A stretch of 64,000 nucleotides of DNA from Squalus acanthias. Its lineage: Eukaryota. Position numbers and translations under genes: made by a program. The stretch lies in contig CM059449.1 in NCBI GenBank assembly GCA_030390025.1, positions 15,190,001-15,254,000 of the forward strand. Reading direction: 5' to 3'. The first letter of the stretch is position 1; each line of letters starts with the position of its first letter. Shown here piece by piece: positions 2,291-53,041 of this stretch. Under the pieces are notes generated by a model. That model did no database searches and had not been told where the DNA came from. It saw nothing but the letters and a program-made list of their open reading frames with translations.

Positions 2291-2506
2291 CTGCAAGTGG
2301 GTAAAACACACCATTTATAAATATACAGGGTACTTCTTTGCTTCAAAGCACGCCGTGGAAGGGCTGGTGGTGGAGGTCGCGAGTTTGGGAGTTCCAATTG
2401 ATCGAATGGTGAATTTACCTTTACGGACAATATTACCCCCTGGAAAAATCCCATATGATTGCGTGCAATTTCATTGGTAAGAATATCTGCACCAATCCAA
2501 ACTTAC

Positions 2507-2857
2507 TGTATTGATCCCGTTCCACGGTCACTGTTGTCCCGGTTTCGTCTGCTGCAGTGAATCCCACGAGCTCCACTTTGCAGAAATAGAACCCGGCATC
2601 TTCCGGTTTCAGCTGGATTATTCTAATAGACGCGTTTCCCCTCTGGCTGAAATCCTCTCTACTTGCCCCGAACACCCTGCCTCTGTATTCCGCTGTATTG
2701 TTGGAAACTTCATTTGTCTGTTTGGTGCCTCGGTGCCACGTGTAGCTGCCGATTCCTCTGGGACCCTCATATCTACAGAGCAGGTCCGCTGTCTGTCCCG
2801 CGGTTTTGGTGAGTGATTGCGGTCTCTGAATTACGGTGATGTTCCCGACAGTAACTG
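2507..2857 (-). CDS. NCR3: Gene A first Ig V (VJ-type) exon, NKp30/NCR3-like
   Basis: 351-nt phase 1-1 exon, open frame, both Cys and Trp intact; J-like motif altered to DETGTTVTV. Confidence 0.88.
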
Positions 2858-10020: not shown

Positions 10021-10629
10021 CCGTATGTGGTCTGGTTTGAATTACACGTCGCACGGATCCTGCGTCCAGGTCTCTGGATTACTGGTCCAGTAACATAACC
10101 ACTATGCTGCCGTTCCCTGTATATGCTTGTGCATGCACCTGCTTATTTGTGTGTGGCTATATGTATTTGCGAGTGTTTGTGTGAGTGTGTCTTTCTGTGT
10201 GTGCAGGTGTTTGAATTCTGGGACTGTTAGATTTCATTTCATGCCTTTCTTGATTGGCTTTCTCTTGAATTATAACTCATATTTTAGTCCCATCTCTATT
10301 CAATTTCGATTTTCAACTTGCATGCGCCTGTGCGTAAAACTGGCGTTTGGGATGGGCCGCACCTGTGCTTTACGCCTGTGTGGCAAGTTGAGAATCTACC
10401 CCACATCTTCAAGAAGAAAAGTTGAGGCCGTCCAACTTCGTTTCATCTTTAGATTTTTACATCCAACTGAGAGAACTGTTTACATGATAATCTACCTGGA
10501 AAAGTAAACCAGAGGTCAGTAGGTTTAAAAATAACAGAATTAGCCCAAGTCATTGTGCTACATACCCGATTTGTTCATCTGCACGCAGAGCTGTCATAAT
10601 TCCTCTCTATAAAGCAGAGAAAAAGGAAA

Positions 10630-11078
10630 AAAAGAAAGACTTGCATTTATATAGCGCCTTTGACCACCTCAGGACGTCCCAAAGCGCTTCACAGTCTTTT
10701 TGAAGTGTAGTCGCTGTTGTAATGTAGGAAACGCGGCAGCCAAATTGCGCATAGCAAGCTCCCACAAACAGCAATCTGACAATGGCCAGAAAATCTGTTT
10801 TAGTGATGTTCATTCAGGAATAAACATTGGCCGGGACACCGGGGAGATCACCCCTGCTCTTCTTCAAAATAGTACCAAGGGATCTTTTACTTCCAGCTGA
10901 GAGGATAGACGGGGCCTTGGTCTACTGTGTCATCCAAAAGATGGCACCTCCGGCAATGCAACGCTCCCTCAGCACTGCACTGGGAGTGTCAGCCTAGATT
11001 ATTGTGCTCAAGTCTCTGGAGTGCGAAGGCCACAACCTTCAATGTTTCAGAGGCGTGGGTTAACAACTGAGCCACTGC
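10630..11078 (-). mobile_element. tRNA-derived Deu-domain SINE (SacSINE1-like); paralogous copy at ~31920-32382
   Basis: Deu-like core tttgtgggagcttgct..aatttggctgccgcgtttcctacattacaacag and tail aaggcgctatataaatgcaag; same family at 44365, 57385, 62930, 63350. Confidence 0.7.
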
Positions 11079-13815: not shown

Positions 13816-14005
13816 ATGATGCGGAGATGCCGGTGTTGGACTGGGGTGGACAAAATTGAGAGGTCGCACAACACCAGGTTATAGTCCAACAGTTTTATTT
13901 GAAATCACAAGCTTTCGGAGCTATCGATTTGCTCCTTCCTCCGAAAGCTTGTGATTTCAAATAAAACTGTTGGACTATAACCTGGTGTTGTGCGACCTCT
14001 CAATT
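13816..14005. mobile_element. Short Penelope fold-back (pLTR inverted repeat)
   Basis: Arms of about 65 bp in inverted orientation; flanking duplication ttgactacttatc (13803-13815, 14006-14018); absent from paralogous introns at ~1450 and ~35130. Confidence 0.85.
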
Positions 14006-17054: not shown

Positions 17055-19532
17055 GAAATTAAAGTCCTCAACGTGTACCCGTGTTAAAATTACAGAATAA
17101 TGCTGGTGTTTTGAGCAGTGCGATTAATTTGACATTTAAATGAGTGTGCGTTGTCCATTTTAATTCATTTTACTGGTGTTCCGAGCGTGGATTTATTACT
17201 GTGTCTATTTCACTCCAGCTTTCTCTGTCTCTCTCCATCTTTCTTTGTCTCTCTCCATCTTTCTCTGTTATGTGGCTCGATGTCTAATTTTGTTTTATAC
17301 CACTCCTGTGAAGCGCCCTGGGAGGCTTTACTACATTAAAGGCACTATACAAATATAAGTTGTTGTTGTTGTTGTTATCTCAGCTTTCCCCGTCTCTCTC
17401 CAGATTTCTCTCTCTCTCTCTAGCTTTTTCTCTCTCTCTCCCGCTTTCCTCTCTCTAGCTTTTTCTCTCTCTCTTTGCAAAGCAACCGAATTTTTCCCCC
17501 TTAACATCTAATAAATGCCGCCCACAGCAATGTGATTTGTCATCATTTTAAGTGATAGACAGAAACATTTCAAAGTACATGTCAATCAAGATTAAAGCTG
17601 AGATAAAGAGAAAGAAAGAGAGAGAGAGCGCGGATGAGTGAAAGAAAAAGAGGGCCAGAGATGAGGACTTAGATAGGAACAGAAAGAGGGGGAGAGTGAA
17701 CAAAAGAGGAGAGATGCGGATGCACTGTAACATTTAATGTACGCACAGCACAAATCCTGGGCCGAACGGGTACAGAGCACAGAGTGAGAGAGGCACGGGG
17801 ATCGCCAGTGTTTGTTTTTTCATAATGAGGCAGACGGCGACTTTAATAAGTGTCCCAAAGGAATCAACAGCTTAATCCCTGTTTAAAGAATGAGTTCTGC
17901 ACTTTCTGGGGAGTGAGGGGTTGTCCGCAGGCTTGGAATACATGCCGGGGGAGGGCGGGTTACAGCGGGCGAGTGGGGGCGGGGGGACGATAGGGAAGGA
18001 GTAGGTCCCATTCCCCACTTGCTCCTTTCAGCCTGTCTGTGAGGTTGGGTGTGAGCTGTGGGTGGAATCGAGCGGTTTCACTGGGGCCTGTTCTTGGCCC
18101 CGCTCCCCTGTGTGGGTTCAGCGTTTGAGATTTTCAAACTGCAGTAATGTTTCTCTGTCTATCACCTTCTGTATCACTCACTCCAGAGTTACACACCTTT
18201 CTGTTCCTCTCCACTGTTGGTGTCTCTCTATCACTGCACAGAGAGTTACGCACCTATCTCTACCTCCCTCTGCTGGTGTCTCTCTCTCATGCCCTGGGGC
18301 CAATATTTATCCCTCAACCAACGTCACTGAAACCGATCATCTGGTTATTATCACATTGTTGTTTGTGGGAGCTTGCCGTGCACAAATTGGCTGCCACGTT
18401 TGCTGTACAGCGCTCCTGAGGTTGTGAAATTAAAGTCCTCCACGTGAACTCGTGCAAAGGCTTGTTATTGAATAATACTGGTGTTTTGGGCGATGCGATG
18501 ATTTTTTCGGTTTAATGATATGCGTGGTGGCCATTTTAATTCATTTTACTGATGTTCTGAATGTGGGGTTATTACTGTGTCTATTTCACTTCATCTTTCT
18601 CTGTGTCTCTCTCCATCTTTCTCTGTTATGTGGCTCGATGTCAAATTTTGTTTTATAACGCTCCTGTGAAGCGCCCTGGGAGGTTTTACTACATTAAAGG
18701 CACTATACAAATACAAGTTGTTGTTGATGTCTCTCTTCAGCTTTCCCCATCTCCCTCTCTAGACCTTTAACATCTAAAAAATGCACACATGGCAATGTGA
18801 TTTGTCGTCATTTTAAATGGTAGACAGAAACATTTCAGAGAACATTTCAATCAAGATTAAAGCTGAGATAGAGAGAAAGAGAGAGAGGAGAGAGAAAGAT
18901 AGCAGATGAGTGAAAGAAAGAGAAAGAGGGACAGAGATGGGGACCTAGAAAGGAACAGAGAGAGAGGGGGAGAGATCATGAAAGAGAGAGAGAGAGAGGG
19001 GGGAGAGAGAGAGATTTTGCTTTATAACAATCCTGTGAAGTGCCCTGAGAGGTTTTACTTTGTTAAAGGCATTATATAAATACAAGTTGTTGTCTCTCTC
19101 CATCTTTCTCTGTCTCCCTCTCGAAACCTTTAACATAGAAAACATGCCACACACAGCAATGTATTTTGTCTTTATTTTAAATGGTAGAGAGAGACATTTC
19201 AATCAAGATTAAAGCTGAGATAGAGAGAAAGAAACAGAGAGAGAGAGAGAGAGAGAGAGCAGATGAGTGAAAGAAGGAAAAGAGGGACAGAGATGGGAAC
19301 CTAGATAGGAACAGAGAGAGGCGGAGAGAGAACAAAAGAGGTAGAGATGGGGAGAGAGAGATTGGGACAGAGAGAGAGAGAGGGACATAGATGGAGGTGA
19401 CTGCTAAATGCCAGAAGTGGAAGATGCACTGTAACATTTATTATATGCACAGCACCAATCCTGGCCCGAGCGGGTACGCGGCACTGAGAGGGAGAGGCAC
19501 GGGGATCACCAGTGTTTGTGTGTTTACAATGA
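17055..19532. repeat. Local degenerate tandem duplication (about 17055-17830 vs 18427-19532) with CT/GA microsatellites and L2-like tails
   Basis: Shared blocks gaaattaaagtcctc.., ctctgttatgtggctcgatgtc.., caatcaagattaaagctgagata.., gcacggggatc.ccagtgtttg. Confidence 0.7.
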
Positions 19533-21497
19533 TGTGGAGATGCCGGCGTTGGACTGGGGTGGACAAAAATGAGAAGTCGCACAACACCAGGTTATAGTCC
19601 AACAGATTTATTTAATTTTACAAGCTTTCGGAGCAGTTCGCTCCTTCGTCAGGTAAGTTTAGCAGTGAGAGAATCTCCCAGAATTCACAATTTAAACACA
19701 GACAAAATATATTCAAATCTTTCCTTACATCAAAGCGCATAGCCAAGACAATGAGATGTGTCCCAGGGGGTCCAACGTGTCAAACCACCTGCTGGCTGCA
19801 TATCCTGTCAATCTGTGTAGGTTCTTGTGTTAGCCTTTTTTAAAAAAAAACACCTGGGAAGACCGGCCATGATGTCAAGTCACGTTCTGTATCGTGACAT
19901 GAACCCGATATCGCGATTGAGGCCATCCTCATGAGTGCGGAACTTGGCTATCAGTTTCTGCTCTATGATTTTGCGCTGTCGTGTATCTCGAAGGCCGCCT
20001 TGGAGAACGCTTACCCGCATATCCGAGGCTGAATGCCCCTGGCTGCTGAAGTGTTCCCCGACTGGGAGGCAACCCTCCTGCCTGGCGATTGTTGCGCGGT
20101 GTCCGTTCATACGTTGTCTCAGTGTCTGCATGGTCTCGCCGATGTACCATGCTCTGGAGCATCCTTTACTGCAACGTATCAGGTAGACAACGTTGGCCGA
20201 GTCACATGAGTATGTACCGTGTACCTGGTGGGTAGTGTCCTCACGTGTGATGATGGTATCTGTGTCCATGATTTGGCATGTCTTGCAGAGGTTGCCGTGG
20301 CAGGGTTGTGTGGTGTCTTGGTTGCTGTTCGCCTGAAAGATGGGTAATCTGCTGCGAACGATGGTACTTTTGAGGTTAGGCGGCTGCTTGAAGGCGAGTA
20401 GTGGAGGCGTGGGGATGGCCTTAGCAAGGTGTTCGTCGTCATCGATGACATGTTGAAGGCTGCGAAGAACATGGCGTAGTTTTTCTTCTCCGCGGAAGTA
20501 CTGGACGACGTAGGGTACTCTGTTGGGACACAACCAACAGAGTACCCTACGTCGTCCAGTACTTCCCCGGAGCGGAAAAACTACGCCATGTTCTTCGCAG
20601 CCTTCAACATGTCATCGATGACGACGAACACCTTGCTAAGGCCATCCCCACGCCTCCACTACTCGCCTTCAAGCAGCCGCCTAACCTCAAAAGTACCATC
20701 GTTCGCAGCAGATTACCCATCTTTCAGGCGAACAGCAACCAAGACACCACACAACCCTGCCACGGCAACCTCTGCAAGACATGCCAAATCATGGACACAG
20801 ATACCATCATCACACGTGAGGACACTACCCACCAGGTACACGGTACATACTCATGTGACTCGGCCAACGTTGTCTACCTGATACGTTGCAGTAAAGGATG
20901 CTCCAGAGCATGGTACATCGGCGAGACCATGCAGACACTGAGACAACGTATGAACGGACACTGCGCAACAATCGCCAGGCAGGAGGGTTGCCTCCCAGTC
21001 GGGGAACACTTCAGCAGCCAGGGGCATTCAGCCTCGGATATGCGGGTAAGCGTTCTCCAAGGCGGCCTTCGAGATACACGACAATGCAAAATCATAGAGC
21101 AGAAACTGATAGCCAAGTTCCGCACTCATGAGGATGGCCTCAATCGCGATATCGGGTTCATGTCACGATACAGAACGTGACTTGACATCATGGCCGGTCT
21201 TCCCAGGTGTTTTTTTTTAAAAAAGGCTAACACAAGAACCTACACAGATTGACAGGATATGCAGCCAGCAGGTGGTTTGACACGTTGGACCCCCTGGGAC
21301 ACATCTCATTGTCTTGGCTATGCTCTTTGATGTAAGGAAAGATTTGAATATATTTTGTCTGTGTTTAAATTGTGAATTCTGGGAGATTCTCTCACTGCTA
21401 AACTTACCTGACGAAGGAGCGAACTGCTCCGAAAGCTTGTAAAATTAAATAAATCTGTTGGACTATAACCTGGTGTTGTGCGACTTCTCATTTTTGT
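19533..21497. mobile_element. Penelope-like element as a ~1.93-kb near-perfect palindrome with two opposed GIY-YIG ORFs
   Basis: Arms 19563-20526 and 20534-21497, 7-bp spacer gacacaa; mirrored ORFs 19880-20533(-) and 20791-21180(+); flanking duplication tgtttacaatga. Confidence 0.93.
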
Positions 21498-29482: not shown

Positions 29483-29590
29483 TTACTTCACCGAAGCGTA
29501 CAGCACCGCTTCTCGCTTCACAGGGCGCTCAGTTTGATTGCTGTCCTGAACATTCACCGTGGCGTATTGCAACTTGTCATCTCTCTCTCG
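29483..29590 (-). CDS. Gene C terminal cytoplasmic exon with two ITIMs: RERDDKLQYATVNVQDSNQTERPVKREAVLYASVK*
   Basis: Acceptor ctttcatctcaatAG, phase 0, matching the preceding exon. LQYATV and VLYASV fit (I/V/L/S)xYxx(L/V). Stop TAA. Not in the supplied ORF track. Confidence 0.85.
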   Translation of the reverse strand, partial: RERDDKLQYATVNVQDSNQTERPVKREAVLYASVK

Positions 29591-31870: not shown

Positions 31871-31911
31871 CCGATTTGTCCTTCTGCACTCAGAGCTTTC
31901 ATAATTCCTCT
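31871..31911 (-). CDS. Gene C cytoplasmic exon (ERNYESSECRRTNR)
   Basis: ttctatAG acceptor and G|GTATGT donor; 41 nt, phase 1 to 0, closes the frame to the ITIM exon. Confidence 0.7.
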
Positions 31912-33448: not shown

Positions 33449-33483
33449 CTGATTCATGGATCTGTGCGTAGAACGGATCTGGA
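33449..33483 (-). CDS. Gene C cytoplasmic exon (SPDPFYAQIHES)
   Basis: tttgcttcAG acceptor and AG|GTGGGT donor; 35 nt, phase 2 to 1; YxxI motif; conserved in copy B (PLYAVI). Confidence 0.75.
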
Positions 33484-33595: not shown

Positions 33596-33617
33596 CTGGT
33601 GGGTTGCTGAAGAGCGA
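33596..33617 (-). CDS. Gene C 22-nt cytoplasmic exon (VALQQPT)
   Basis: ttctctcctcacAG acceptor and CAG|GTAACT donor; identical in copy B (12284-12305). Confidence 0.75.
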
Positions 33618-33928: not shown

Positions 33929-34054
33929 CTCTCTTACGATGCCGGCTGATAACAACTGTGATTATGGTGATGATCAGGAGAGGCACCGCTACCGCTGTAT
34001 AGACGAGTGGTGGGATCATTGTTGCGGACTCGCCGTGGCTGCTCTCTCCACCAC
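33929..34054 (-). CDS. Gene C stalk/transmembrane exon (SGGESSHGESATMIPPLVYTAVAVPLLIITIITVVISRHRKR)
   Basis: 126 nt, phase 1-1; uncharged TM then RHRKR. An alternative in-frame donor C|GTAAGA lies 9 nt earlier. Confidence 0.85.
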
Positions 34055-35586
34055 CTGTGTGTAAATGTAAAGTTTCTTTTGTGAGACAGAGCAGTCAAGA
34101 GCAGGGCAATGGTCACATTGAGATTGAGGATCAGCAAATGTGACACAGATTCCCAATTCCCTTTGACATGCGGGGCTATTTCACACTCGCATACATCAAA
34201 CTAGGCCACGGATCAAAACGCAAAAAGTCACCAGTGGGCAACTCGGGTTATTACCAACCTGGAAGTAACACTGGGGAGAATTTTAATGTAGGGACGCTTA
34301 ATGGGTTGGTGCCAGTTTCCTTTCTTTTAAATAGAGGGGGGTGGGGTGGGGATCGTGTGAGTTCTGTTAACATAGGAACATAGGAACAGGAGGAGGCCAT
34401 TCATCCCCTCTAGCCTTTTCCACCATTCAATGAGATCATGGCTGCTCTGCGACCTAACTCCGTATACCCGCCTTTTGCCCCATATCTCTTAAGACCTTTG
34501 GTTAACAAAACTCTGTCAATCTCCGATTTAAATTTAACAATTGATCTAGCATCAGATGTCGTTTGCGGAAGAGAGTTCCAAACTTTTACCACCCTTTGTG
34601 TGTAGAAGTGTTTCCTAATTTCACTCCTGAAAGGTCCGGCTCTAATTTCTACACCATGCCCCCTAATCCTAAACCCCCCAATCAGCTGAAGTAATTTCTG
34701 TCTATCTACCATCTCTGTTCCTCTTACTATCTCGAGAGTGTCGCTTCTCCCGCCCAGTTTTCTAGAATTCACTAGACCCTGGAGATCCAATAGTTCCAGA
34801 GCACGAATGAGAAAATCTTCCCCTCGTATTTTCGGGATGCTTAAGACAAAACGAACATCTGGAAATTAGATGTGCCGACACTGGGTGATCAACGTGGATC
34901 TTCCGCGGCCCCAATATTTGCATTTTGTTGGCGCGCAATGTTGTAATTTAAATTTACACACACAACCATATCCGTCAGTACCTCCATTTACAGGATGACA
35001 GTGAAATCGAACTTATCATACATGTGTTGTCCGGTTTATTCCCAATATTGGAACGCGGTGATTTCAAGGCTCACCTGTTGCTCTCATTACGGGGCTCAGT
35101 CTTCGCCCCGCACATTGTAACTGGGTTGACTTCTTATCTATAGTCCTACCTAAAATTGTATACAGCAACTTATTGTAATTAATATCCCCTCCATTTATTT
35201 ATTTTATAAGATCATTCTCGGGATACGGGCGACGCTGGCGAGGCGGTCATGTTATTGTCCATCTCTGGTTGACCCCTTGAGAAGGTGGTTTTGGGCCGCC
35301 TTATTCTTGAACCGCTGCAGTTCAGTGTGGTGAAGGTTCTCCCGCAGTGCTGTTAGGGAGGCAGTTCCAGGATTTTGGAAGGAACAGCGATACAAGTTCA
35401 AGTCAGGATGGTGTGTGACTTGGCGCCTACTGCCCTTGACCTTCTAGGTGGTGGATTCGCGGGTTTGGGAGTTCCAATTGATCTGATGGAAAATTTACCT
35501 ATACGGCCAGTATTACGCCCTAGAAAAATCCCATATGATTGCGAACAATTTCATTGTTAAGAATATCCCCAACAATCCAAACTTAC

Positions 35587-35937
35587 TGTATTGACGCCGT
35601 TCCACGGTCACTCTTGTTCCGGGTCCGTCTGCTGCAGCGAATCCCACGAGCTGCACTTTGCAGAAATAGAACCCAGCATCTTCCGGTTTCAATTGGATTA
35701 TTCTAATGGACGCGTTTCCCCTCTGGCTGAAATCCTCTTTACTTGCCCCGAACACCCTGCCTCTGTATTCCGCTGTATTGTTGGAAACTTCATTTCCCTG
35801 TTTGGTGCCTCGGTGCCAGGTGTAGCTGCCGATTGCTGTGGGACCCTCATATCTACAGAGCAGGTCCGCTGTCTGTCCCGCGGGTCTGGTGAGAGCTTGC
35901 GGGCTCTGAATTACGGTGATTTTTCCAACAGTAACTG
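35587..35937 (-). CDS. NCR3: Gene C membrane-proximal V exon (V2), NKp30-like
   Basis: 351-nt phase 1-1 exon, NAGNAG acceptor, intact C/W/C and GPGTRVTV. Confidence 0.88.
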
Positions 35938-37295
35938 CTGTAAGTGGGTAAAACAGACTATTTATAAATATACAGGGCACTCCTTTGCTTTTAAGCACGC
36001 CGTGGAAGGGCTGGTTTTAAGCAAATATTGGTTCGGATGATTTTTGTTAAAGTATTCATGATCTTTAACTTGAGGGAATAAAAACAGAAAACACTGGAAG
36101 CGGTCAGCAGGCCAGGCAGCATCTGTGGAGAGAGGAATAGAGTCAACGTTTAAGGCCGATGACTTTTCGTCAGAACTGGAAAAAGTTGGAGATGTAACAG
36201 GTCTTAAGCAAATGTAGGGGCAGGGGAAAGGGGGGAAGGGAGGAAGAACAAAAGGGAAGGTCTGTGATAGAGTGGAAGGCAGGGGAGATTAAATGACAAA
36301 AGGGATGATGGTACAAGTAAAAAGGAGATGGTAATGGGACAAGTAAAGGAACAAAAGATGGGTCTAGAAGAGGATTAAATTGTTAACTTGAGGGATATTG
36401 GTGCTGGAACTGGAGCGCCTTTGATTTTTGGGCGCACTCCTCGGTCAAGTATAGAATGGATCTGGTACAAAGTACCTCTGTCCCGTTCCAAATAATAAGC
36501 ATTCACTTTAATTTCAGTTCTCCCGATATGCTTTCTGTGCTGCCCGCCGCTCTCATTAACACTTTGAGCGAGAGTGTGAAATGGGTAATCTCGAATTAAA
36601 CGCCTTGCCCGATGTTCTCTTCCATTTGGGGGCCATTTTAACTTCGGGTGCTAAATAGGTGAGCTCGGGTCGGCTGCCTGAAATTAAAATCGGGGCAGGT
36701 GTACAACGGGCGGCTGATCCGATGTCGCCCGTTTCAGTCGGTCGCACAAAGTCCAAATCACCCCCAGGAAGTGAGGGGAAGTTTAATCTTATTAGTCTGA
36801 TCAGAATGGAAGTCAGATAGGTGCCAAACCCCAGCGACCTTCTCTCTATTAATCAGCGGTGACTGGAGAATATGGGAAATACAAACAGAATATTAATAGT
36901 CAAAATAATGAAACGGGATAAATGTTACATGTAGCGACATTACAAATTGGATGAAATATTTCCCACTTTGGGTATATCTTGTAAAACCGCCAATACCTCT
37001 TTACAAATTGTTTATGATTTTGCTACATCTACGGATCGGAGAAAATAGTCAATGCATTTGCAACCACGTTCCGCGCAGCAAGCAGCGCAACTCTTGCCCT
37101 GTGCTGATAACTAGAGGAATGTTGTATCCAGTTAAACTGTTAGTAATAATATGAGTTGAACATATCTCTTTCTCTCTCACACACACACGCGATTGGAACC
37201 CATTTCTCTCTCTCTCTTTTCCTATTCCTATCCATCACTTCTTGATTTAACTCGTCTACCCTCCCACTATTTCCAACCTTGATGCTGTCCACCCA

Positions 37296-38290
37296 CGTAA
37301 CTGAAGTTCCTTATCCCCGAACCATTCTCGTAAATCTTTTCTGCATCCTCTCTAAGGCCTTCACATCCTTCCTAATGTGTGGTGCCCAGAATTGGGCAAA
37401 ATACTCCAGTTGAGGCCAACCCAGAGTTTTATAATGTATCATCATAACTGCCATGCTTTGTACTCTATGCCTCTATTTATAAACCCCAGTATCCCATATT
37501 CTTTGTTAACCGCTTTCCCAATCTTGTGCACATATAACCCCAGGTCTCTCTGTTGAGGCACCCACTTTAGGATCGTAACCTTTAATTTATTTTGCCTCTC
37601 CTCGTTCTTCCTCCCGAAATGTATCACTTCGCACTTTCCTACGTTAAATTTCATCTGCCACGAGTGGTGAAGCTCCAATTAACGTATCTTCCACTATCAT
37701 TAATTGATGTTACTGGGTGTCCATTTTTGTTCGAATAATTTCGGATCAATGTATCCGTACATGAAATACAGCAATCTGTCAATTAACGTTGTACAATTAT
37801 TATGAATTGAGCCCAGATAGATCGGTCACTGCGGGGAAGGATCTCATTTCCAAGGGTCACACTTTAGACGTTAACTAGTTAGCTGTAAGAAGGGAACTTA
37901 GGCGGAAACTGTTCCCCTATAGAGTAAAAGATTTCTGGAACAAGTTACTGGAGACGGCAGTGGGAGTGGGCAGTACAAACAGATTCAAGAGACAACATGT
38001 GTGTTTTTAGAAAAAAAGTAGCCTTGACCTGTCAAACAGGGACAGTTTTTTTTTTGACATAATGATCTCATGTGTCTCACAATTTACAAGCTATTGTGAA
38101 GAATTTAAATGCTGATTGATCCAGCAATCATTGAGCTACAAACCGGTATTCAGCTGTCATTACATTGGGTCCTTTTCCCGTTTCTCAACGCAACCTTGGG
38201 AAATTGCACTCCATAATCAGATTGAACAGAGGTATACATTCGGAACCTTTATGGTGCCAAAATTAGAGGCAATTGTCACTTTATAAAGGT
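37296..38290. repeat. Duplicated copy of gene C intron-1 segment (about 39820-41580, without the MITE)
   Basis: Collinear match: CR1 piece, then ..gtatcttccactatc.., gcccagatagatcggtcact.., ttgagctacaaaccggtattcagctgtc. Confidence 0.85.
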
Positions 38291-38988
38291 GGATCTGTTG
38301 TAGAAGGCGGCTCACCACCACCTTCTCAATGGTAACTTAGGATGGGCAATAAATGCTAGGCGACGCCCACATATCAGGAACGTATTAAAAATATAGAAGG
38401 CATGTTTCCTTTTATATGGTGCGGGGATAAAACCGCACAGTGCTCTGGTCAGGTGGCATCTTGAGTATTGTGTTTAGTTCTGGTCACTCAGGCTCAAGGG
38501 AGACATGTAAGACCCGGAGGAGAAGTGAACGCTAGCCTGTTCCCTCGTGTTCTAGTGCGAGGTTATGAGAGAAAAAAAAGACTAGAAAAGCTCGGACTCA
38601 TTAACTTTGTAAAAAGGGACGAACATAGCTGCCTTAACAGAGATATGTAAGGTGCCAAGCATGAAAATCAAGGGATAATGCGAAGTACTATTTTGAGATA
38701 ACCCACACCTTCAGGTGGTGGGTTGGGCTTTGGGGGAGTAGCCTGAAGCTCGTGTAATCCTATTATTAAAGCACCGCGCCTTGAATAGTCAGATTCTAGT
38801 TAGATATATGGCACTTTCAGGATATTAATTGTCGACCAATTGTTCTGGATGTACTTTGAAAGTGATATTGACACACGGACACAATTCAGTACACCGAACT
38901 GAAATCTTTTAGTACAGCACATGTACAGCCATTCCAATGCCAAAATATTGGTAAATTCTTAAAACGAACTCTGATCTTTTTTACTCAC

Positions 38989-39327
38989 TGTCAGTTATTA
39001 TAAGTTGTGTTCCTGTCCCGCTTGCTTTCCCAACCGCCACAATTTCCACCTCGCAGTAATAAATATCTGAGTCCATTTTCGTTAAATTGATGATTTCAAG
39101 GAAAGCCATTCTTTCGGCAAATAATTTCGCCCCTGACTTCGTTATCCGGCTCTGATAGAAACGATCCCGAACCGACACTTCCGTGTTTTGTGAGGCCCGA
39201 CGCCAAACAACTCCTCCGGCAGTACCATTCGCTTCAAAAGTGCAGTTCAGCTGCACCGATCCTCCTTCTGTTGCATTAATGGCATCTGGGGACTGGAACA
39301 CTCTGATTCCACTCATCAACCCATTGT
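38989..39327 (-). CDS. NCR3: Gene C N-terminal V exon (V1), divergent NKp30-like VJ-type domain
   Basis: 339-nt phase 1-1 exon (atactccAG ... A|GTGAGT); VFQSP..EGGSVQLNC..VVW..DSDIYYCEVEIVAVGKASGTGTQLII. Confidence 0.85.
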
Positions 39328-39384
39328 CTGGAGTATAAATGAAACAATGCAATCTGTCAATAGCTACCTACAGATTTACGGACC

Positions 39385-40212
39385 AGTAGAGAATTATAGA
39401 ATGGTTACAGCACAGAAGGAGGCCATTCGGCCCGTCGAGCCCGTGCCGGCTCTCTGCAAGAGCACTTCAGCTAGTCCCACTCCCCCGCCCTTTCCCCTTA
39501 GCCCTGCATTTTTTTCCTTCAGGTACTTATCCAACTCCCTTTTGAAAGCCACGATTGAGTCTGCCTCCACCAACCTTTCAGGCAGTGCATTCCAGGTCCT
39601 AACCACTCGCTGCGTAAAAAGGTTTTTCTCATGTCGCCTTTGGTTCTTTTGCCAATCGCCTTAAATCTGTGTCCTCTAGTTCTCAACCCTTCCACCAATG
39701 GGAACAGTTTCTCTCTATCTACTCTGTCTAGACCTCTCATGATTTTGAACACCTCTGTCATATCTCTTCTCAACCTTCTCTGCTCTAAGGAGAACAACTC
39801 CGACTTCTCTAGTCTATCCTCGTAACTGAAGTTCCTCATCCCTGAATCATTCTCGTAAATATTTTCTTCCCCATCTCTGAGGCCTTCACATCGTTCCTAA
39901 AGTGCGGTGCCCAGAATTGGACACAATACTCCAGTTGAAGCCGAACCAGTGTTTTGTAAAGGTTCATCATAACTGCCTTGCTTTCGTACTCTATGACTCT
40001 ATTTATGAAGCCCACTATCCTGTAAGCTTTGTTCACCGCTTTCTCAACCTGCCCTGCCACCTACAATGATTTGTGCACATATACCCCCAGGTCTCTCTGT
40101 TCATGCACCCACTTAATGATCGTACCCATTAGTTTATTTTGCCTCTCCTCGTTCTTCCCACCAAAATGTATCACTTCGCACTTTCCTGCGTTGAATGTCA
40201 TCTGCCACGAGG
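39385..40212 (-). mobile_element. CR1 LINE 3' fragment in gene C intron 1
   Basis: LEYCVQFWAPHF, RRLRRDMTEVFKIMRGLDRVDRE. Confidence 0.85.
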
Positions 40213-40544
40213 GGTGAAGCTTAAATTAAAGTATCTTCCACTATCACTAACTGATGTTACTGGGTGTCCATTTTTGTTAGAATGAGTTCGGATCAATTTA
40301 TCCGTACATGAAATACCGCAACCTGTCAATTAACGTTGTACAATTATTATGAAATGAGCCCAGATAGATCGGTCACTGTGGGGAAGGATGTAATTTCCAA
40401 GGGTCATACTTTACACGTTAACTAGTTAGCAGTAAGAAGGGAAGTCAGGCGGAAACTGTTCGCCTTTCGAGGAAGAGATTTGTGGAACAAGTTGCTGGAG
40501 ACGGCCGTGGGAGTGGGCAGTACAAATAGATTGAAGAGACATAC

Positions 40545-41287
40545 TGGCCCAAAAATTCGTGAGGAAGCCTTCGTGCGAGGGTAAGGCCTCCCCGCGATCT
40601 CTCACTCTGCGTTGGCTTTTTCAGTTCCAGCTCGCACGAACTTGATGTTCTGGACAGCTGCTGTGCTGGGCTTGCCTATCCCACCGGCGTAGTTAATTCG
40701 TGCGAGCTGTGGGATCACGTGACTCAGTTAGAGGCCAATGGAAGCACACCATCTTCCATTCATAACTTTCACATAAGTGCTGTGAAAGTTATGAATACTA
40801 TAGCCCCCCAAAAGAACCGCTAAACCTCAATAAAATTAAAAAAAACATCACATTAATAAAATAAGTATAGTTAAATAAATTAACCATTTTAAATAAAAAA
40901 TTAAATCTTTGAAAAAATTTAAAATCTTTTAAAAAGTTATAAAAATAAACTTACCTGTCTTTAAAGTCTCTAAAAAAGATATACCTGTTAAAAAAAATCA
41001 AAATAATACTTAATTCACTACTTACCTTGTTAAAAGTGGGTCTTACTCCTCCTTTTTTTATGTGTAGAATCTTCCGCACTTACCTGCGCGTTGAAACCAC
41101 TAATTGCACAGCGTGCGCGCAGCCTGTAGCGCGCACGCGGTTCACCTAGGACCCGCCCCCTTTTCCATTCACCAAGTGCCGGTTTTTAGCGCATGCGCAG
41201 TGCATGCAGAAAACCGGCAATTGGAGACAGAATAGGCGAGAGTACGCAGTGCGGACTCTCGCGTAGCGGCACAAATTTTTGGGCCAA
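40545..41287. mobile_element. MITE-like TIR element, copy 2
   Basis: TIR tggcccaaaaatt / aatttttgggcca; empty site visible in the duplicated segment at ~37995. Confidence 0.85.
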
Positions 41288-42206
41288 TGTGTGTTTCTGG
41301 AGAAAGAAGCATTGATCTGTCAATCAGGGACTGGGTATTTGTGGACACAATGATCTCTTGTGTCCCAGAATTTACAAGCTATTATGAAGAATTTAAAATG
41401 CTGATTGATCCATCAATCATTGAGCTACAAACCGGTATTCAGCTGTCATTACATTGGGTCCTTTTCCAGTTTCTCAACGCAACTTTGGGAAATTAAAGTC
41501 CATAATCAGATTCAACAGCTTTTTACATTCAGAACCTTTATGGTGCAAAAATTACAGGCAATTGTCACTTTATAAAGGCGGTTCTGCTGTATTTCCACGC
41601 ACTTGGTTTTCTTTGCAAAACTATTGACATAATATAATCACCACTTCCCAACGCAGTTCTATTTCACCGTCCTACTAGGGGAAGATTTCACTTCTGTCAT
41701 CTTTAATCATTTAAGACGGAAACCTGTCCTTTATAGTCTGTTAATTGTAAGTATGAAAACTTTGGAAATGTGTTGAATATGAATCGTTTGCTAATGGAAT
41801 AAATTGTGTCGAACGCAAAGACGTTGAATTGTCGAGTAGAAGGTATAATGTCAGATAATTCCACGTGTAACACAGTCGGTTAGGAGTCCGTGAGGTAATT
41901 TATTTCCATAAGTACATTTTAGTAGGCCCTATTAATATGTTAATTTTTAATGCAAATTCACAGCATCTGCATGGAGGAGAACGTTAATGTGTATAATATA
42001 TATATGTAAAGTTCCCCGAAAGATAAAATACCGTTGAAATGGTGGATTCAACGCAAAGTAACACAGCGAAATAAAATAATTTATTTTACACACTGTAACT
42101 TCGTTATATATTAGGTCTGCATAAGGAAACAACCTGCCCAACCAAGTAACCGATATTCTTAATAAATATAGAATTAAACTGTGATCATCAGAAGATAGCG
42201 ACTCAC

Positions 42207-42264
42207 CGACATGCAAAAGTATGGTCAGTAAATTGAAGAACATCCACATGTGAATAGTTTGCAT
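42207..42264 (-). CDS. Gene C leader exon (MQTIHMWMFFNLLTILLHV|D)
   Basis: 58 nt, hydrophobic signal peptide, donor G|GTGAGT in phase 1 matching V1. Confidence 0.8.
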
Positions 42265-46224: not shown

Positions 46225-47446
46225 AGAGCGAGAGAGAGAGACAGAACCATGTGCGAGAGAGATAACTGCGGTTGTATATACAGCTTGCAATTCATTTTTT
46301 TTCCATTCCCTCACATCCGGACTCTGACTCAGGTTCACTCTCCCACTGCATTACTCAAATATTCCTGTCTGTACACGATCTGAATTTCTTTTCTGAAATG
46401 ATATCACCGCCGACAGGGAGAATGAATTGGGCTGCAGTTACCTGGGCATTCGTTATGTTCTCCGGTAAGCTTATTTCTGACACATCAGGTCCATTCAAGC
46501 AGATTTTCAACTTGCCGCCTGAGCGTAAAGCTGGCGTTGCGGTGCGGCCGCCTGTTATTGAAACGGACTGATTTTAATTTCCATTATTTCATACTGACTG
46601 TAATGAGATATTGTATGTCTTAATTAGATATTAAAAACCCATAGCGATGTCCTCCTATCTATTTGTTTTCTTATTCATATGTGTATCTGGTTAAATCTTA
46701 TTCCGATATCCCATATTTGCTGATCACAGCATCAGATTGTGGATTTAACACATTTTATATTCATGACAATCTCACCTTCAATTTAAAAAACATCAGGTTT
46801 GTGCAGACATTCTCATAGACGCGAGATTAACCATCTTAATTTCTCAACGCCGTGGTAATGAATTATGTTCTGGTAATATAATCAATCTCGCAGTTAACCA
46901 GGTCTCGCCTTAGGGTAACGCTTTTGAGGTTGCTTATTTTGAATTGAGGCATTTAAGTGAAGGGCCCATGGCCCATGGCGTAGGACAGCATCAAGGTTGG
47001 AAATAGTGGGAGGGAAGACGAGTTAAATCAAGAAGTGATGGATAGGAATAGGAAAAGAGAGAGAGAGAGAGAGAAATGGGTTCCAATCGTGCGTGTGTGT
47101 GTGAGACAGAAAGAGAGACTGAGGTAGACAGAGAGAGATAGAGAGAGCTAACCATGAGAGACGGATCAGCTCTCGGGTTACGAGGTTTATTGTATCTGGT
47201 CCAGGAGAGCACAATGTATGTTGCTCCCTGAAGTACATATTGCCCTAGTACTCTGCCTGATAGGGTGGTGGATACAGATTCAATAGTAGTCTTCAAATTG
47301 GAATTGGACAAATACTTGAAGGAGAAAAATATTGCAGGGATGGGGGAAAGACTGGGGGAGTGGGACAAACTGGATCGCTCTTCGAAAGAGCTGGCGCAGA
47401 CTCGATGAGCCGAAAGGCCTCCTTCTCTGCTGTACTATTCTATGAT

Positions 47447-48141
47447 GTGGAGATGCCGGTGTTGGACTGGGGTGGACAAATGTGAGAGGTCGCACAACAC
47501 CAGGTTATAGTCCAACAGATTTATTTGAAATCACAAGCTTTCGGAGCGCTGCTCCTTCGTCAGGTGAAGTGAAGAGATGCATATAAGCACAGCATATATA
47601 GTCAGAGAACACTGCCAGATGATTACAGTTAATCTTTCAAACTGCCCTTTATTACATCGTCAAGCAGAAACTGATAGCCAAGTTCCGCACCCATGAAGGC
47701 GGCCTCAACCGGGATCTTGGGTTCATGTCACACTACATGTAACCCCACCCTACGTAGAGTCATCCAGACTCAAGTCGTCGTTGGCTTGTTCTCTTTACAC
47801 AGATGCGGCCGGACCTGCTGTGATTTCCAGCAAAAAAAGTTTTTTGTTTTCCATACAGACCCCAGCATCTGCCACCTTTGACCCCTTGTGAACCTACCTC
47901 ATTGTCTTTGATGTAATGTTTTCCTGACTGACCTGTTTGGACACGATCCACAACTTTTATTGCCGTGATTATCTCTCTGCCGAGGTGTGATAAAGGGCAG
48001 TTAGAAAGATTAACTGTAATCATCTGGCAATGTTTACTGACTATATATGCTGCGCCTATATGCATCACTTCACTTCACCTGACGAAGGAGCAGTGCTCCG
48101 AAAGCTTGTGATTTCAAATAAAGCTGTTGGACTATAACCTG
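47447..48141. mobile_element. Penelope fold-back insertion in copy D intron 1
   Basis: Inverted pLTR arms; flanking duplication gtactattctatgat (47432-47446, 48142-48156); empty site in gene A at ~5425. Confidence 0.87.
48078..48112 (+). ncRNA. Minimal hammerhead ribozyme motif in Penelope pLTR (others: ~3466-3500 -, 19620-19653 -, 21407-21440 +, 47533-47565 -, 62777-62808 +)
   Basis: CTGACGA-aggagc agt gctcc-GAAA core with a stem II hairpin; Penelope-like elements are known to carry minimal HHRs. Confidence 0.7.
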
Positions 48142-49308
48142 GTACTATTCTATGATTCTATTATATTACATCTAACAAAAAATTCAATATTCTCCATCCA
48201 CAGCAGTCCTTGGAGTGAATATTTGCAGTGCTGGCTGTGTTGAAATAAACACCCGTTTCCAGGGGGCATGACTTTTTTTTTGTTCAATTCATATTATTTC
48301 TAGTAATTTAACTGGATACAATCTTTCTCTAGTTACCAGCATAGGGCAAGAGTTGCGATGCTTGCTGCGCGTAACCAGGTCGCAAATGCATTGATTATTT
48401 TCTCTGATCCGTTGTTGTAGCAAAATCATAAACAATTTTTAAAGTGTTATTGGTGGTTTTACAAGATATACCCAAAGTGGGAAATCTTTCATCCAATTAG
48501 CAATGGCGCTACATGTAACAAGCTGAGGACATTTAGCCCGTTTCATTATTTTGACTATTAAAATTCTGTTTGAATTTTACATATTCTCCCGTCGCCACTG
48601 ATTAACAGTGCGAAGGTCGCTGTGGTTTACTACCTATCTGACTTCCAATCTGATCAAATTAAGAAGATTAAACTTCTCCTCACTTGCTGGGGGTGATTTT
48701 GAATTTTTCCGACCGACTGAAACGGGCGACATCGGATCAGCCGCCTGTTTAACACCTGCCCCGATTTTAATATCAGGCAGCCGACCCGACCTCGCCCATT
48801 CAGCACCCAAAGTTAAAATGATCCCCAAATGGAAGCGATCATCGGGCAAGGCGTTTAATTCGTGATTGCCCATTTCACACTCTCGCTCAAAGTGTCAATG
48901 AGAGCGGCGGGCAGCACAGAAAGCATATCGGGAGAACTGAAATTAAAGTGAATGCTTATTATTTGGAACGGGACAGAGGTACTTTGTACCAGATCCATTC
49001 TATACTTGACCTAGGAGTACACCTAAAAAACCAAAGGCGCTCCAGTTCCAGCACCAATATCCCTCTAGTTAACCATTTAAACCTCTTCTAGACCCATCTT
49101 TTGTTTTCTTTACTTGTCCCATTACCATCTCCTTTTTACTTGTATCACCATCCTTTTGTCATTCGATCTCTCCTGCCATCCACTCTATCACAGACCTTCC
49201 CTTTTGTTCTTTTCTCCCTTCCCCCGTTTCCCTGCCACGACACTTGCTTAAGACCTGGTACATCTGCAAACTTTTCCAGTTCTGACGAAAGGTCATGGAC
49301 CTGAAATG

Positions 49309-50583
49309 TGTAGGCTTCGCAAATCACCCAGAAACTCGAACAGAACCCTAAGTGAAGTGATTTGAGGTAAAAAGCTCAGTTTTGGACATTTTAAAAGATC
49401 AGGGAAGAAAACCCCCTGAGGAAAATGACTTTTTGAATCTTACTGTTAGGAAAGACACCTTTCACAGACACAGACAGGCTGCAAAGGGGCGTGGCCAGGC
49501 AGTGGACAGCTTTGGGTATTGGGGCCCAATCAAACTGTCTGGGAATGTGTTTACACTGCATTCCTACCAAGGAGGAAGAGACAAACCCAAAGCCTCACAC
49601 ACACATCGAAATATCAATAAATCCAAGACCTCTTTTGAAATTCCCAGTCCAAACAGGATACCAGAAGCCTGAAATCAATAAAACATTTAGTACCCCGATT
49701 TACTTCATCAAAAAACAATAAACCAGGTATCCACAGGACAGATTTACAAGCCCGCCAAAAACCTAGGACAATAGGGACAAGATTTGGTGCGTAGATAAAG
49801 GCCTTGCCTGAATGGGGAACAATCGGAAGCCATCGGGACATGTTTAACACCAAGTTAAAGCCATCGAAACTGACAAGCCCGCCAAAACTAAGACAATGGA
49901 ATAAACAGGGCTCATTTGAAATCTAAAGGAATCCGATTTAGTAAGGGGTTTTGGCGCGAAAAGGACAAAGAGGCTGACAATATAATTGGAGGCCTAAACC
50001 CCAAGACTCTCTCTCTCTGGACTCTCTGACAATGCTCTCAACGCTCGCACAGCTCTCTCTCAGCTATGCTCCAGCAAGACACCACAAGCCACGAGGAGGA
50101 GGAGGAAAGAAAGCCAACAACTTCACAAACAGACCAACACACAAGAAGAAACCAGAGCGACTGCCTCAGTGACCATCGGACACCACGTGGCAACAAGGGC
50201 CTTACGAAACATTTTACCCAAAAGACTCTAAACCCTACTCTCAACTGTCAAGGATTCATTTGGTGAGCATTATCCTGAACTCCTGAAACCAAAACCTAGC
50301 TAGATAGTGGGATTTTTGGGAGGGATAAGGTTTTTTTTGTATATTGTATTTCACCCTCGCCTGCACCGTGTGTTTCCCAATCTGTGTTTAAGTATTAAGT
50401 GTGTTTTAAGTGTGTATCATTTTTATGTTAATAAAGTCAAAATTCTTTCATCAGGGCCTGTTGTCTACTGCATCTTTGTTCACAACCCCTAAATAAATCA
50501 AGTCTAGGAACCAGGGGCGTGAGAGCGATTCGAACCACTCACTGAGTAAGAGGTGAAGGTTGACCCCACTAACACCCCCTAAA
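49309..50583 (+). mobile_element. Solo LTR (~1275 bp)
   Basis: TGTAGG...CCTAaA ends; 4-bp TSD aatg/aacg against the empty site cctgAACGttgac in paralogs; TATAA ~49981, AATAAA ~50430 and ~50492. A related LTR end lies at 53042-53205. Confidence 0.8.
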
Positions 50584-52541
50584 AACGTTGACTCTGATTC
50601 TTTCTCCACGGATGCTGCCTGGCCTGCTGAGCGTTTCCAGTATTTTTCTGTTTTTATTCCCTCAAGTTAAAGATCATTAATACCATATCGAAAATCTAGG
50701 AACAAATATTTGCTTAAAAACCAGCCCATCCACGGCGTGCGTTAAAGCAAAGAAGAGCACTGTATATTATCAATGGTCTGTTTTACCCACTTTCAGCAGT
50801 TACTGCTGGAAACATCACCGTAATTCAGAGCCCTCAATCTCTCACCAGAACCGCGGGACAGACAGCGGAGCTGCTCTGTAGATATTAAGGTCCCACAGGA
50901 ATCGGCAGCTACACGTGGCACCGAGGCACCAAACAGGGAAATGAAGATTCCAATAATACAGCGGAATACAGAGGCAGGGTGTTCAGGGCAAGTGGAGAGG
51001 ATTTCAGACAGAGTAGACACGCGTCCATTAGAATAACCCAGCTGAAACCGGAAGATACCGGGTTCTATTTCTGCAAAGTGCAGCTCGTGGGATTCGCTGC
51101 AGCAGACGGACCCGGGACAACAGTGAGCGTGGAACGTGGTGAATCCAGTAAGTTTGGATTGGTGGAGTTATGCTTACCATGAAATTGCAACGCAATCATA
51201 TGGGATTTTTCTAGGGTAATATTCGCCGTATAGGTAAATCTCCATTAGATCAATTGGAACTCCCAAACCCCGCGAACTCCACCACCTAGATGTTCAAGAG
51301 GCAGTAGGCGCCTGGGGAAACACCACCACCTCAAGTCCCCCGCCAAGTCACACACATCCTGACTTGGACTTGTATCGCTGTTTCTTTCCAAAATCCGGGA
51401 ACTCCCTCCCTAACAGCACTGCGGGAAAACCTTCACCACACTGATGCAGCGGTTCAAGAAGAAGGCGCCCACCAGCACCTTCTCACGGGTCAACCATAGA
51501 CGGGCAATAACATGCCCGCCTCGCCAGCGTCGCCCGTATCCCGTGAATCATCTCTTAAAATAATGAATGGAGAAAATATTAATTACATTCAGTTTCTGTA
51601 TGCAATTTTAGTTAGCACTATAGATAAGTAGTCAACGCAGTTACAGTGTGCGAGGCGATGACTGTGAGCCCAGTAATGAGAGCAACACATAAGGCGTTTT
51701 GAAATCCACCGCGTGCCAATATTGGGAATAAACCGGTCAACACGTCTATGATAAGTTAGATTTCACTGTCATCCTGTAATGGATATACTGACGGATATAT
51801 TTGTGGTGTGAAATCGAATTACAACATTGCGCACCAACCAAATGAAAGATGGGCACGCGGAAGAACACGTTGATCACCCAGTGTAGGGCCGTCCTAATTT
51901 CCGGATGTTCGTTTTTGTCATAAGCATCCCATAAATACGAGGGGAAGATTTTCCCGTTCGTGCTTCTGGAACTATTGGACTCCAGCGACTAATGAATTCA
52001 GGAAACTGGGCGGGAGGAGCGAACCTCTCGAGATATTAAGGGGAACAGAGATGGTAGATAGAGAGAATTATTTCCGCTGGTTGGGGAGTTTAGGACGAGG
52101 GGGCATGTGTTATGAAATTAGGAGCCAGAACTTTCAGAGTGAAATTAGGAAACACTTCTACACACACAAAGGGTGGTTGAAGTTTGGAGCTCTTTTCTCA
52201 AACGACAACTGATGCTGGGTCAATTGTTCATTTGAAATCGGTGACTGGTAGATTTTTGTTAACCAAAGGTATTAAGGGATATGGGGCAAGAAGCCGGTAT
52301 ATGGAGTTAGGTCGCAGATCAGCCATGATCTCTTTAATGGTGGAACAGCCTGGAGGGGCTGAATGGCCTCCTCCGGTTCCTATTTTCCTATGTTAACAGA
52401 ACTCACACAATCCCCACCCCCACCACCCCGCTATTTCAAAGAAAGGAAACTGGCACCAACCCATTAAGCGTCCCTACATTAAAATTCTCCCAGTATTACT
52501 TCCAGGGTGGGAATATCTCCAGTTGCCCATTGATGACATTT

Positions 52542-53041
52542 NNNNNNNNNNNNNNNNNNNNNNNNNNNNNNNNNNNNNNNNNNNNNNNNNNNNNNNNNNN
52601 NNNNNNNNNNNNNNNNNNNNNNNNNNNNNNNNNNNNNNNNNNNNNNNNNNNNNNNNNNNNNNNNNNNNNNNNNNNNNNNNNNNNNNNNNNNNNNNNNNNN
52701 NNNNNNNNNNNNNNNNNNNNNNNNNNNNNNNNNNNNNNNNNNNNNNNNNNNNNNNNNNNNNNNNNNNNNNNNNNNNNNNNNNNNNNNNNNNNNNNNNNNN
52801 NNNNNNNNNNNNNNNNNNNNNNNNNNNNNNNNNNNNNNNNNNNNNNNNNNNNNNNNNNNNNNNNNNNNNNNNNNNNNNNNNNNNNNNNNNNNNNNNNNNN
52901 NNNNNNNNNNNNNNNNNNNNNNNNNNNNNNNNNNNNNNNNNNNNNNNNNNNNNNNNNNNNNNNNNNNNNNNNNNNNNNNNNNNNNNNNNNNNNNNNNNNN
53001 NNNNNNNNNNNNNNNNNNNNNNNNNNNNNNNNNNNNNNNNN
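52542..53041. other. Assembly gap (500 N)
   Basis: Run of N. Confidence 1.

What the first reader, a model, noticed from the sequence alone, without database searches (positions are those of the whole stretch)
35587..42264. Gene C looks like a chimera: one subfamily's leader+V fused to another subfamily's V-TM-tail
Seen: in copies A and D the V2-type exon has its own leader (MISPPTGRMNW..) and begins with the signal-peptide end AVTVG. In gene C, homology to that intron stops at ~37290, before the leader. Beyond it are a duplicated piece of the V1 gene's intron 1 (37296-38290, matching 39820-41580), the divergent V1 and an unrelated leader. No TM exon is visible between V1 and V2. Inference: exon shuffling by unequal recombination produced a hetero-domain receptor under a different promoter.
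Basis: partly seen in the sequence, partly recalled or inferred. Interest (0 to 1): 0.8.

Follow-up and report, generated by a model that had tools for sequence, protein, structure and literature searches.

The report
Inversion-fused two-domain shark NKp30-like receptor
In a shark's cluster of natural-killer-receptor-like genes, the front half of one family member sits in frame on the back half of a distantly related one, in four copies that likely stem from one old DNA inversion, and it would give a two-domain inhibitory receptor if it is expressed, which is untested.

Summary
The chimera is real in the assembly; the proposed breakpoint and mechanism need correcting. Gene C is an intact 8-exon, 359-aa gene: leader and V1 of one NCR3/NKp30-like subfamily, then V2, transmembrane and two-ITIM tail of another (V1 and V2 31% identical). 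Both subfamilies are single-V genes with their own membrane exon in other sharks, and two complete V1 parents lie 1.6-1.8 Mb away. The fusion exists in four copies with one shared junction (window 38302), so it likely arose once, early in the cluster's expansion. The 37290 junction is a later deletion; the original breakpoint survives only in the two distant copies. The array changes strand at the junction and no junction has long homology, which points to an inversion or template switch, not unequal crossing-over. The whole gene looks conserved (0.5-2% chance of staying intact neutrally); V1 alone does not (24-33%), so a leader swap with V1 skipped stays open. Expression and read support are untested. 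Fusion genes are well known in NK-receptor clusters (KIR). The scan had not noted this fusion on other DNA.

The parts
42207..42264 (-). Leader exon L1 (ATG, signal peptide) of the V1 subfamily
   Evidence: same leader type in V1 proteins of other sharks (P0002, P0009, P0157)
39812..41591 (-). Part of the L1-V1 intron homologous to the duplicated piece (39812-40541 and 41287-41591; 40542-41286 is a repeat insertion)
38989..39327 (-). V1 exon, VJ-type Ig domain, phase 1/1, intact
38302..38988 (-). Sequence downstream of V1 shared with the truncated leader+V1 copies; ends at junction J1 (38302), which is shared by all four fusion copies
37287..38302 (-). Duplicated piece of the L1-V1 intron; the four fusion copies of it form one clade (97/97)
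37165..37290 (-). 126-bp remnant of the V2 gene's intron 1 between two later deletions (about 536 bp at 37290, removing the original breakpoint; about 475 bp at 37165)
35587..35937 (-). V2 exon, VJ-type Ig domain that starts with the end of its former signal peptide, phase 1/1, intact
33929..34054 (-). Stalk and transmembrane exon of the V2 subfamily; no charged residue in the membrane span
33596..33617 (-). Tail exon 1
33449..33483 (-). Tail exon 2 (one tyrosine)
31871..31911 (-). Tail exon 3
29483..29590 (-). Last exon with two ITIM-type motifs (LQYATV, VLYASV) and the stop codon
   Evidence: the ITIM consensus itself is recalled
46398..46464 (+). Leader L2 of the head-to-head partner gene D, carried in the inverted block
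50797..51147 (+). V2 exon of partner D with an in-frame stop (pseudogene); an assembly gap follows at 52542-53041

Best explanation
Gene C is an in-frame fusion of the leader and V domain of one shark NCR3/NKp30-like subfamily to the V domain, membrane span and ITIM-type tail of another, likely made once by a non-homologous strand-inverting rearrangement, and predicted to encode a two-domain inhibitory receptor. Inferred order: (1) a leader+V1 fragment without its membrane exon came to lie head-to-head with a V2 gene and was amplified with it as the repeat unit of the cluster; (2) in one unit an inversion or fold-back template switch, with a slip that re-copied about 1.1 kb of the V1 intron, joined the flipped leader+V1 to intron 1 of a V2 gene about 125 bp after its leader, so V2 lost its leader; (3) because every exon boundary is phase 1 the frame was open at once; (4) the fusion duplicated into two lineages: C/C' lost two intron pieces and stayed intact, E/E' lost a tail splice donor. 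The protein would bind ligand through one or both V domains and signal inhibition through phosphatase recruitment to the two tyrosine motifs. Shown: layout, open frame, copies, shared junction, strand flip, single-V relatives. Inferred: order of events, repair mechanism, selection. Untested: transcription, inclusion of V1, ligands, signalling.
For: Intact 359-aa frame with canonical splice sites in C and C'. 16 V1-type exons found in the genome (150 of 356 candidates scored): 2 complete parents with their own TM exon, 10 truncated leader+V1 copies all on the + strand, 4 fusions all on the - strand. A 301-bp probe across 38302 matches full length at 4 of 40 scored places, the four fusions; all other cluster matches break at the junction. 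The four duplicated pieces form one clade, 97/97. E/E' keep about 190 bp more of the duplicated piece and V2-intron sequence up to about 125 bp from the leader; their junction has a 16-base filler without local source, J1 has one base of overlap. Orientation against the standard array flips at the junction in 4 of 4 copies and stays flipped for 15-21 kb. V1 relatives in Heptranchias, Heterodontus and Stegostoma and V2 relatives in Ginglymostoma, Heterodontus and Scyliorhinus each carry their own TM after that V. Neutral simulation at 4% divergence keeps the whole gene intact in 0.5-1.9% of runs; V2 pN/pS against ten intact V2 exons of non-fusion genes is 0.36-0.80.
Against: V1 shows no purifying signal: pN/pS 1.05 between C and E (17 vs 5 changes) and 0.81-2.1 against all other V1 exons except the identical C', and V1 alone stays intact in 24-33% of neutral runs. 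E and E' have a GC donor at tail exon 2, an AT donor at tail exon 3 and a likely harmful I-to-N change in V2, so 2 of 4 copies look decayed. Trees of the V1 exon region and of V2-gene introns do not group C with E (star-like); single origin rests on the shared junction and the duplicated piece. No reciprocal inversion breakpoint was found, and informative sites do not link the fused intron to its own head-to-head partner, so inversion and fold-back cannot be told apart. Gene conversion from intact paralogues could keep a frame open without selection, and the gene was picked because it looked intact.
Confidence: 0.62

Rival explanations
1. Leader and promoter swap: the gene works as L1-V2-TM-tail, a normal single-V inhibitory receptor under a new upstream region, and V1 is skipped or is a dispensable passenger.
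For: L1 to V2 splicing is in phase. Constraint is seen on the whole gene and on V2, not on V1. The head-to-head L2 gene is broken in 4 of 4 fusion loci.
Against: V1 keeps canonical splice sites, both cysteines, the tryptophan and the J-like motif in both lineages, while 7 of 10 truncated leader+V1 copies are broken. pN/pS near 1 is also what ligand-binding domains under diversifying selection show (general knowledge).
Confidence: 0.2
2. Neutral debris of a birth-and-death cluster: an in-frame fusion by luck of exon phase, not expressed or without function.
For: Many neighbours are broken; E/E' are decaying; V1 pN/pS about 1.
Against: Whole-gene survival is unlikely under neutrality (0.5-1.9%); all 14 splice sites and both tyrosine motifs are kept in C and C'.
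Confidence: 0.1
3. One reading: unequal crossing-over between two same-strand genes, with the breakpoint at 37290.
For: The junction region lies in a LINE-like repeat fragment (37287-37516 matches other repeat copies), and repeats mediate KIR fusions (PMC7516082, passages).
Against: Donor copies lie on the opposite strand (10 of 10) and the array flips at the junction; no junction shows more than a few bases of shared sequence; 37290 is a deletion relative to E/E'.
Confidence: 0.05
4. Assembly artefact or ancestral two-domain layout.
For: A gap lies 10 kb away (52542-53041); C and C' are 99.6% alike over the core; reads across the junction were not examined.
Against: The junction stands in four places in two lineages about 8% apart; there is no gap between C and C' and their flanks differ by 2-6%; no V1-V2 protein turned up among 152 relatives, while single-V forms of both did.
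Confidence: 0.03

Closest known systems
Shark NCR3 (NKp30) family; V2 is closest to nurse shark NCR3 QTT61898.1 (P0005), V1 to Heterodontus 'NCR3-like' XP_067865593.1 (P0006) and a Heptranchias protein (P0002)
   Same: 65-68% identity per domain, same leaders, same TM and tail types, single-exon VJ-type domain; human NKp30 is the best solved-structure match for both domains
   Different: Those proteins have one V each; here V domains of two subfamilies (31% identical) are in one chain. The defining paper on shark NCR3 subtypes (Kinlein 2021) was not held, so I could not check whether it shows such a form.
Multi-V NCR3-like proteins of sharks and bichir (P0013 Heterodontus, P0016/P0153 Pristiophorus, P0018 Chiloscyllium, P0026 Polypterus) and the L2-V2-V2 genes of this cluster
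   Same: Two or three tandem V domains before one TM
   Different: Their neighbouring domains are 47-83% identical to each other, as expected from exon duplication; gene C joins two separate subfamilies and its breakpoints can be traced
KIR fusion genes of primates (PMC7516082, passages read)
   Same: Rearrangement in a tandem NK-receptor cluster shuffles binding and signalling parts, often using pseudogene segments
   Different: KIR fusions arise between head-to-tail, closely related genes by unequal crossing-over at repeats; this one joins distant subfamilies across a strand inversion and adds a domain
Human NKp30/NCR3 (PMC6514059, passages read)
   Same: VJ-type IgV ectodomain; scaffold also carries MHC class I-like genes
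   Different: One IgV, a TM arginine and adaptor-based activation in human; two IgV, an uncharged TM and two ITIM-type motifs here

Membership tests
NCR3/NKp30 family (cartilaginous fish) | V domain most similar to NKp30 and to named shark NCR3 | tested here: met
   NKp30 chains are the top four PDB matches for V2 (E 1.5e-14) and V1 (E 2e-8); 65-66% identity to proteins named NCR3 or NCR3-like
NCR3/NKp30 family (cartilaginous fish) | VJ-type domain in a single, non-rearranging exon | tested here: met
   339- and 351-nt exons with both cysteines and a J-like end; feature as stated in PMC11999971 (passage)
NCR3/NKp30 family (cartilaginous fish) | Linkage to the MHC (separates NCR3 from the NCR3H paralogues; criterion recalled) | tested here: inconclusive
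   16 of 50 MHC class I matches lie on the same scaffold, 15-23 Mb away, but the strongest are on other contigs; the class II search found nothing anywhere
Mammalian-type NKp30 | One extracellular IgV domain | tested here: not met
   Two V exons in frame
Mammalian-type NKp30 | Charged TM residue that recruits an ITAM adaptor | tested here: not met
   No charged residue in the membrane span; two ITIM-type motifs in the tail
Mammalian-type NKp30 | Binds B7-H6 (recalled) | not testable with these tools
   needs a binding assay
Fusion gene of an NK-receptor cluster (KIR-like) | Segments traceable to two separate parental genes | tested here: met
Fusion gene of an NK-receptor cluster (KIR-like) | Breakpoint in shared homology between head-to-tail genes (unequal crossing-over) | tested here: not met
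   Strand flip and no long homology at any junction
Fusion gene of an NK-receptor cluster (KIR-like) | Spliced fusion transcript | tested here: inconclusive
   one search gave no usable cover of the exons in the same-species runs

The most novel reading that the evidence does not exclude
Gene C is an expressed, naturally bispecific inhibitory NKp30-family receptor: two V domains from subfamilies that were already separate in the common ancestor of several shark orders, each keeping its own ligand, held on one ITIM tail, kept by selection and homogenised between two copies by gene conversion. The ten truncated leader+V1 copies would be the cluster's exon donors, and the three intact ones secreted decoy domains.
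Probability: 0.2. Interest if true: 0.62.

Novelty: new variant of a known kind. Interest (0 to 1): 0.36.

Why it matters
It is a clean, traceable case of a new immune-receptor architecture born inside an old gene family: parents, truncated donors, the breakpoint and later decay are all in one genome. If both domains are expressed and bind, it gives a direct way to ask whether shark NCR3 subfamilies see different ligands, and whether one chain can combine them. As a class, fusion and multi-domain genes in NK-receptor clusters are known, so a specialist would find it notable rather than very surprising.

Tried and rejected
Expression: no RNA holder was listed for the stretch. Laying four runs guessed to be RNA, all kept as contigs, gave tables dominated by repeats; none of the 15 joints shown (135 not shown) was an L1-V1, V1-V2 or L1-V2 splice; same-species runs barely touched the exons; a run of another species had an exon-sized contig on V1 (34 differences in 340) and two V2 pieces, which fit paralogues and say nothing on the fusion. 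Protein search with V1 at 61-195 aa: 5 candidates, none significant. No protein with both a V1-type and a V2-type domain among the 152 proteins fetched; these searches are sparse for sharks, so this is weak. Trees of the V1 exon region, V1 with flanks (which lost E/E' and four others to a coverage filter, 10 of 16 kept) and V2-gene introns were star-like and did not order the lineages. Test of the fold-back model by informative sites: no signal. Search for a reciprocal breakpoint: none in the stretches read. MHC class II search: uninformative. A self-BLAST for domain identity returned nothing and was replaced by direct alignment. My first exon boundaries were off by a few bases and were corrected. 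Papers not held: Kinlein 2021, Janes 2023, Flajnik 2012, Ohta and Flajnik 2015; their text or supplements may describe multi-V or hybrid shark NCR3 genes. Searches of the held library listed no paper on such a fusion. No structure or complex was predicted.
Full report
What it is. The window lies at G000:C26:15190001-15254000 in a 3.7-Gb genome. Both V exons of gene C match human NKp30/NCR3 best among solved structures and are 65-68% identical to shark proteins, some named NCR3. The region is a large cluster of such genes. Gene C has eight exons on the minus strand, from leader L1 (42264-42207) through V1, V2, a membrane exon and four tail exons to a stop at 29483. All introns are GT-AG and in phase; the frame is 359 aa, the membrane span has no charged residue, and the last exon has two ITIM-type motifs (consensus recalled). 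V1 and V2 share 34 of 111 residues.

Homology of the V2 intron to copies A and D stops at 37290; 37287-38302 repeats part of the L1-V1 intron at 86-88%; L1 is unrelated to L2; no membrane exon lies between the two V exons.

Both halves have single-V parents. In this genome two complete L1-V1-TM1 genes lie at 13.47 and 13.63 Mb, and many L2-V2-TM-tail genes lie in the cluster. In other sharks V1 relatives (P0002 Heptranchias, P0006 Heterodontus, P0009 Stegostoma) and V2 relatives (P0005 Ginglymostoma, P0004 Heterodontus, P0003 Scyliorhinus) each have their own membrane segment after that V. None of the 152 proteins checked carried both domain types, a weak negative.

The donor was a truncated copy. 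Of 16 V1-type exons found (150 of 356 candidates scored, so a lower bound), 10 are leader+V1 copies without a membrane exon. Their homology to the parents ends about 135 bp after the exon. All 10 are on the plus strand; 7 of 10 lie head-to-head with the leader of a minus-strand V2 gene. Three of the 10 are intact. C shares its V1 flanks and about 2.8 kb upstream of L1 with these copies (92%), and only about 300 bp at 68-70% with the parents.

One origin, four copies. L1-V1-V2-TM occurs at C (15.229 Mb), C' (15.088), E (15.761) and E' (17.137). The V1-V2 introns are 99.6% alike in C/C' and 99.4% in E/E'; C and E differ by about 8%. A probe across 38302 matches full length at these four places only, among 40 scored. 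The four duplicated pieces form one clade (97/97), apart from the genes' own introns. Other trees are star-like and do not by themselves join C with E, so the event is about as old as the cluster's expansion. C and C' have no gap between them. E' lies beyond a gap in a region 96-98.6% like that of E, and could be a second haplotype.

The breakpoint is not 37290. In E/E' the duplicated piece runs about 190 bp further, then a 16-base filler with no local source, then V2-gene intron from about 125 bp after its leader. C/C' lack about 536 bp around this point and another 475 bp further on; 37290 and 37165 are those later deletions. J1 at 38302 jumps 2.5 kb back into the V1 intron with one base of overlap. 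Against a stretch of standard units, orientation flips at the junction in 4 of 4 copies and stays flipped for 15-21 kb, over the leader+V1 and its head-to-head partner. A strand flip, a short local re-copy and junctions without long homology fit an inversion or replication template switch (inference from general knowledge of such junctions), not unequal crossing-over. I found no reciprocal breakpoint and no link of the fused intron to its own partner, so simple inversion and fold-back remain both possible.

Is it functional? For: C and C' keep every splice site and motif; in a neutral simulation with the indel rate measured between C and E, the whole gene survives 4% divergence in 0.5-1.9% of 4000 runs; V2 pN/pS against ten intact V2 exons of non-fusion genes is 0.36-0.80. 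Against: V1 has pN/pS 1.05 between C and E and survives alone in 24-33% of runs; E/E' have lost a tail donor; conversion and selection of the example could inflate the case. L1 can splice in phase to V2, so a working gene does not prove a two-domain product. Transcripts and reads across the junction are untested.

Comparison with what is known. Human NKp30 has one IgV and a membrane arginine (PMC6514059, passages); gene C differs in both. Fusion genes that shuffle binding and signalling parts are frequent in primate KIR clusters (PMC7516082, passages). I also saw passages of PMC12227049, PMC11999971 and PMC10751288 on NCR3 as a non-rearranging, MHC-linked VJ gene, and only the reference entry in PMC10450919. 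The shark NCR3 papers themselves (Kinlein 2021, Janes 2023) were not held; that they describe several divergent subtypes is recalled. Six searches listed no report of a cross-subfamily fusion, and the scan's notes held none.

Verdict. A real, old, single-origin chimera; new variant of a known kind; interest 0.36. My odds: genomic fusion real 0.95, single origin 0.9, strand-inverting non-homologous mechanism 0.8, expressed with both domains about 0.6.

Noticed in passing
G000:C26, ten places from 15.02 to 17.06 Mb (e.g. L017 3966-7035, L002/L003, L023/L024): Truncated leader+V1 copies without a membrane exon; read-through of the V1 donor meets a stop two codons later, so the 3 intact ones of 10 could give secreted single V domains.
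   Followed up: partly
L013 4659-8627 (G000:C26:15124659-15128627, minus strand): An intact V exon of a third subfamily lies 1.1 kb upstream of a V2 exon with a lost acceptor and a stop, followed by V2-type TM and two tail exons: a second cross-subfamily junction that could splice the third V to the V2-type TM.
   Followed up: partly
window 46398-51147 and the matching partners at 15.095, 15.772 and 17.148 Mb: The head-to-head V2 partner gene is broken in all four fusion loci, by different lesions (stop; stop plus TM loss; V and TM deletion).
   Followed up: partly
window 35086-42085 versus G000:C26 15.084-15.091 Mb: C and C' differ at 25 positions in this 7-kb core but at 257 in the next 10 kb, which suggests gene conversion over the fused part.
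   Followed up: partly
window 1940-2857; also 15.034 and 15.527 Mb: Three L2-V2-V2 genes with a tandem V exon and open frames.
   Followed up: partly
window 10566-14848 (copy B): Likely pseudogene: no leader found, first V cysteine changed to glycine, stop in tail exon 3.
   Followed up: partly
G000:C26 13.68, 14.77, 14.89 and 15.41 Mb: Runs of 2-4 V exons of other subfamilies 1-4 kb apart on one strand, probably multi-V genes.
   Followed up: no
window 33929-34054 and paralogues: The TM exon varies from 126 to 141 nt through an isoleucine-codon repeat; C and C' have the shortest.
   Followed up: no
G000:C26 15.70-15.73 Mb and 17.09-17.10 Mb: An array of roughly 2-kb repeats lies before the E and E' units (offsets).
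   Followed up: no
protein P0001 (Mustelus gene model): Ends in a V1-type leader and domain with no TM behind it; either a truncated copy in another shark or an annotation error.
   Followed up: no
window 3415-4602 and 19529-21497: Elements with long inverted arms, probably DNA-transposon derived; the first interrupts intron 1 of copy A.
   Followed up: no
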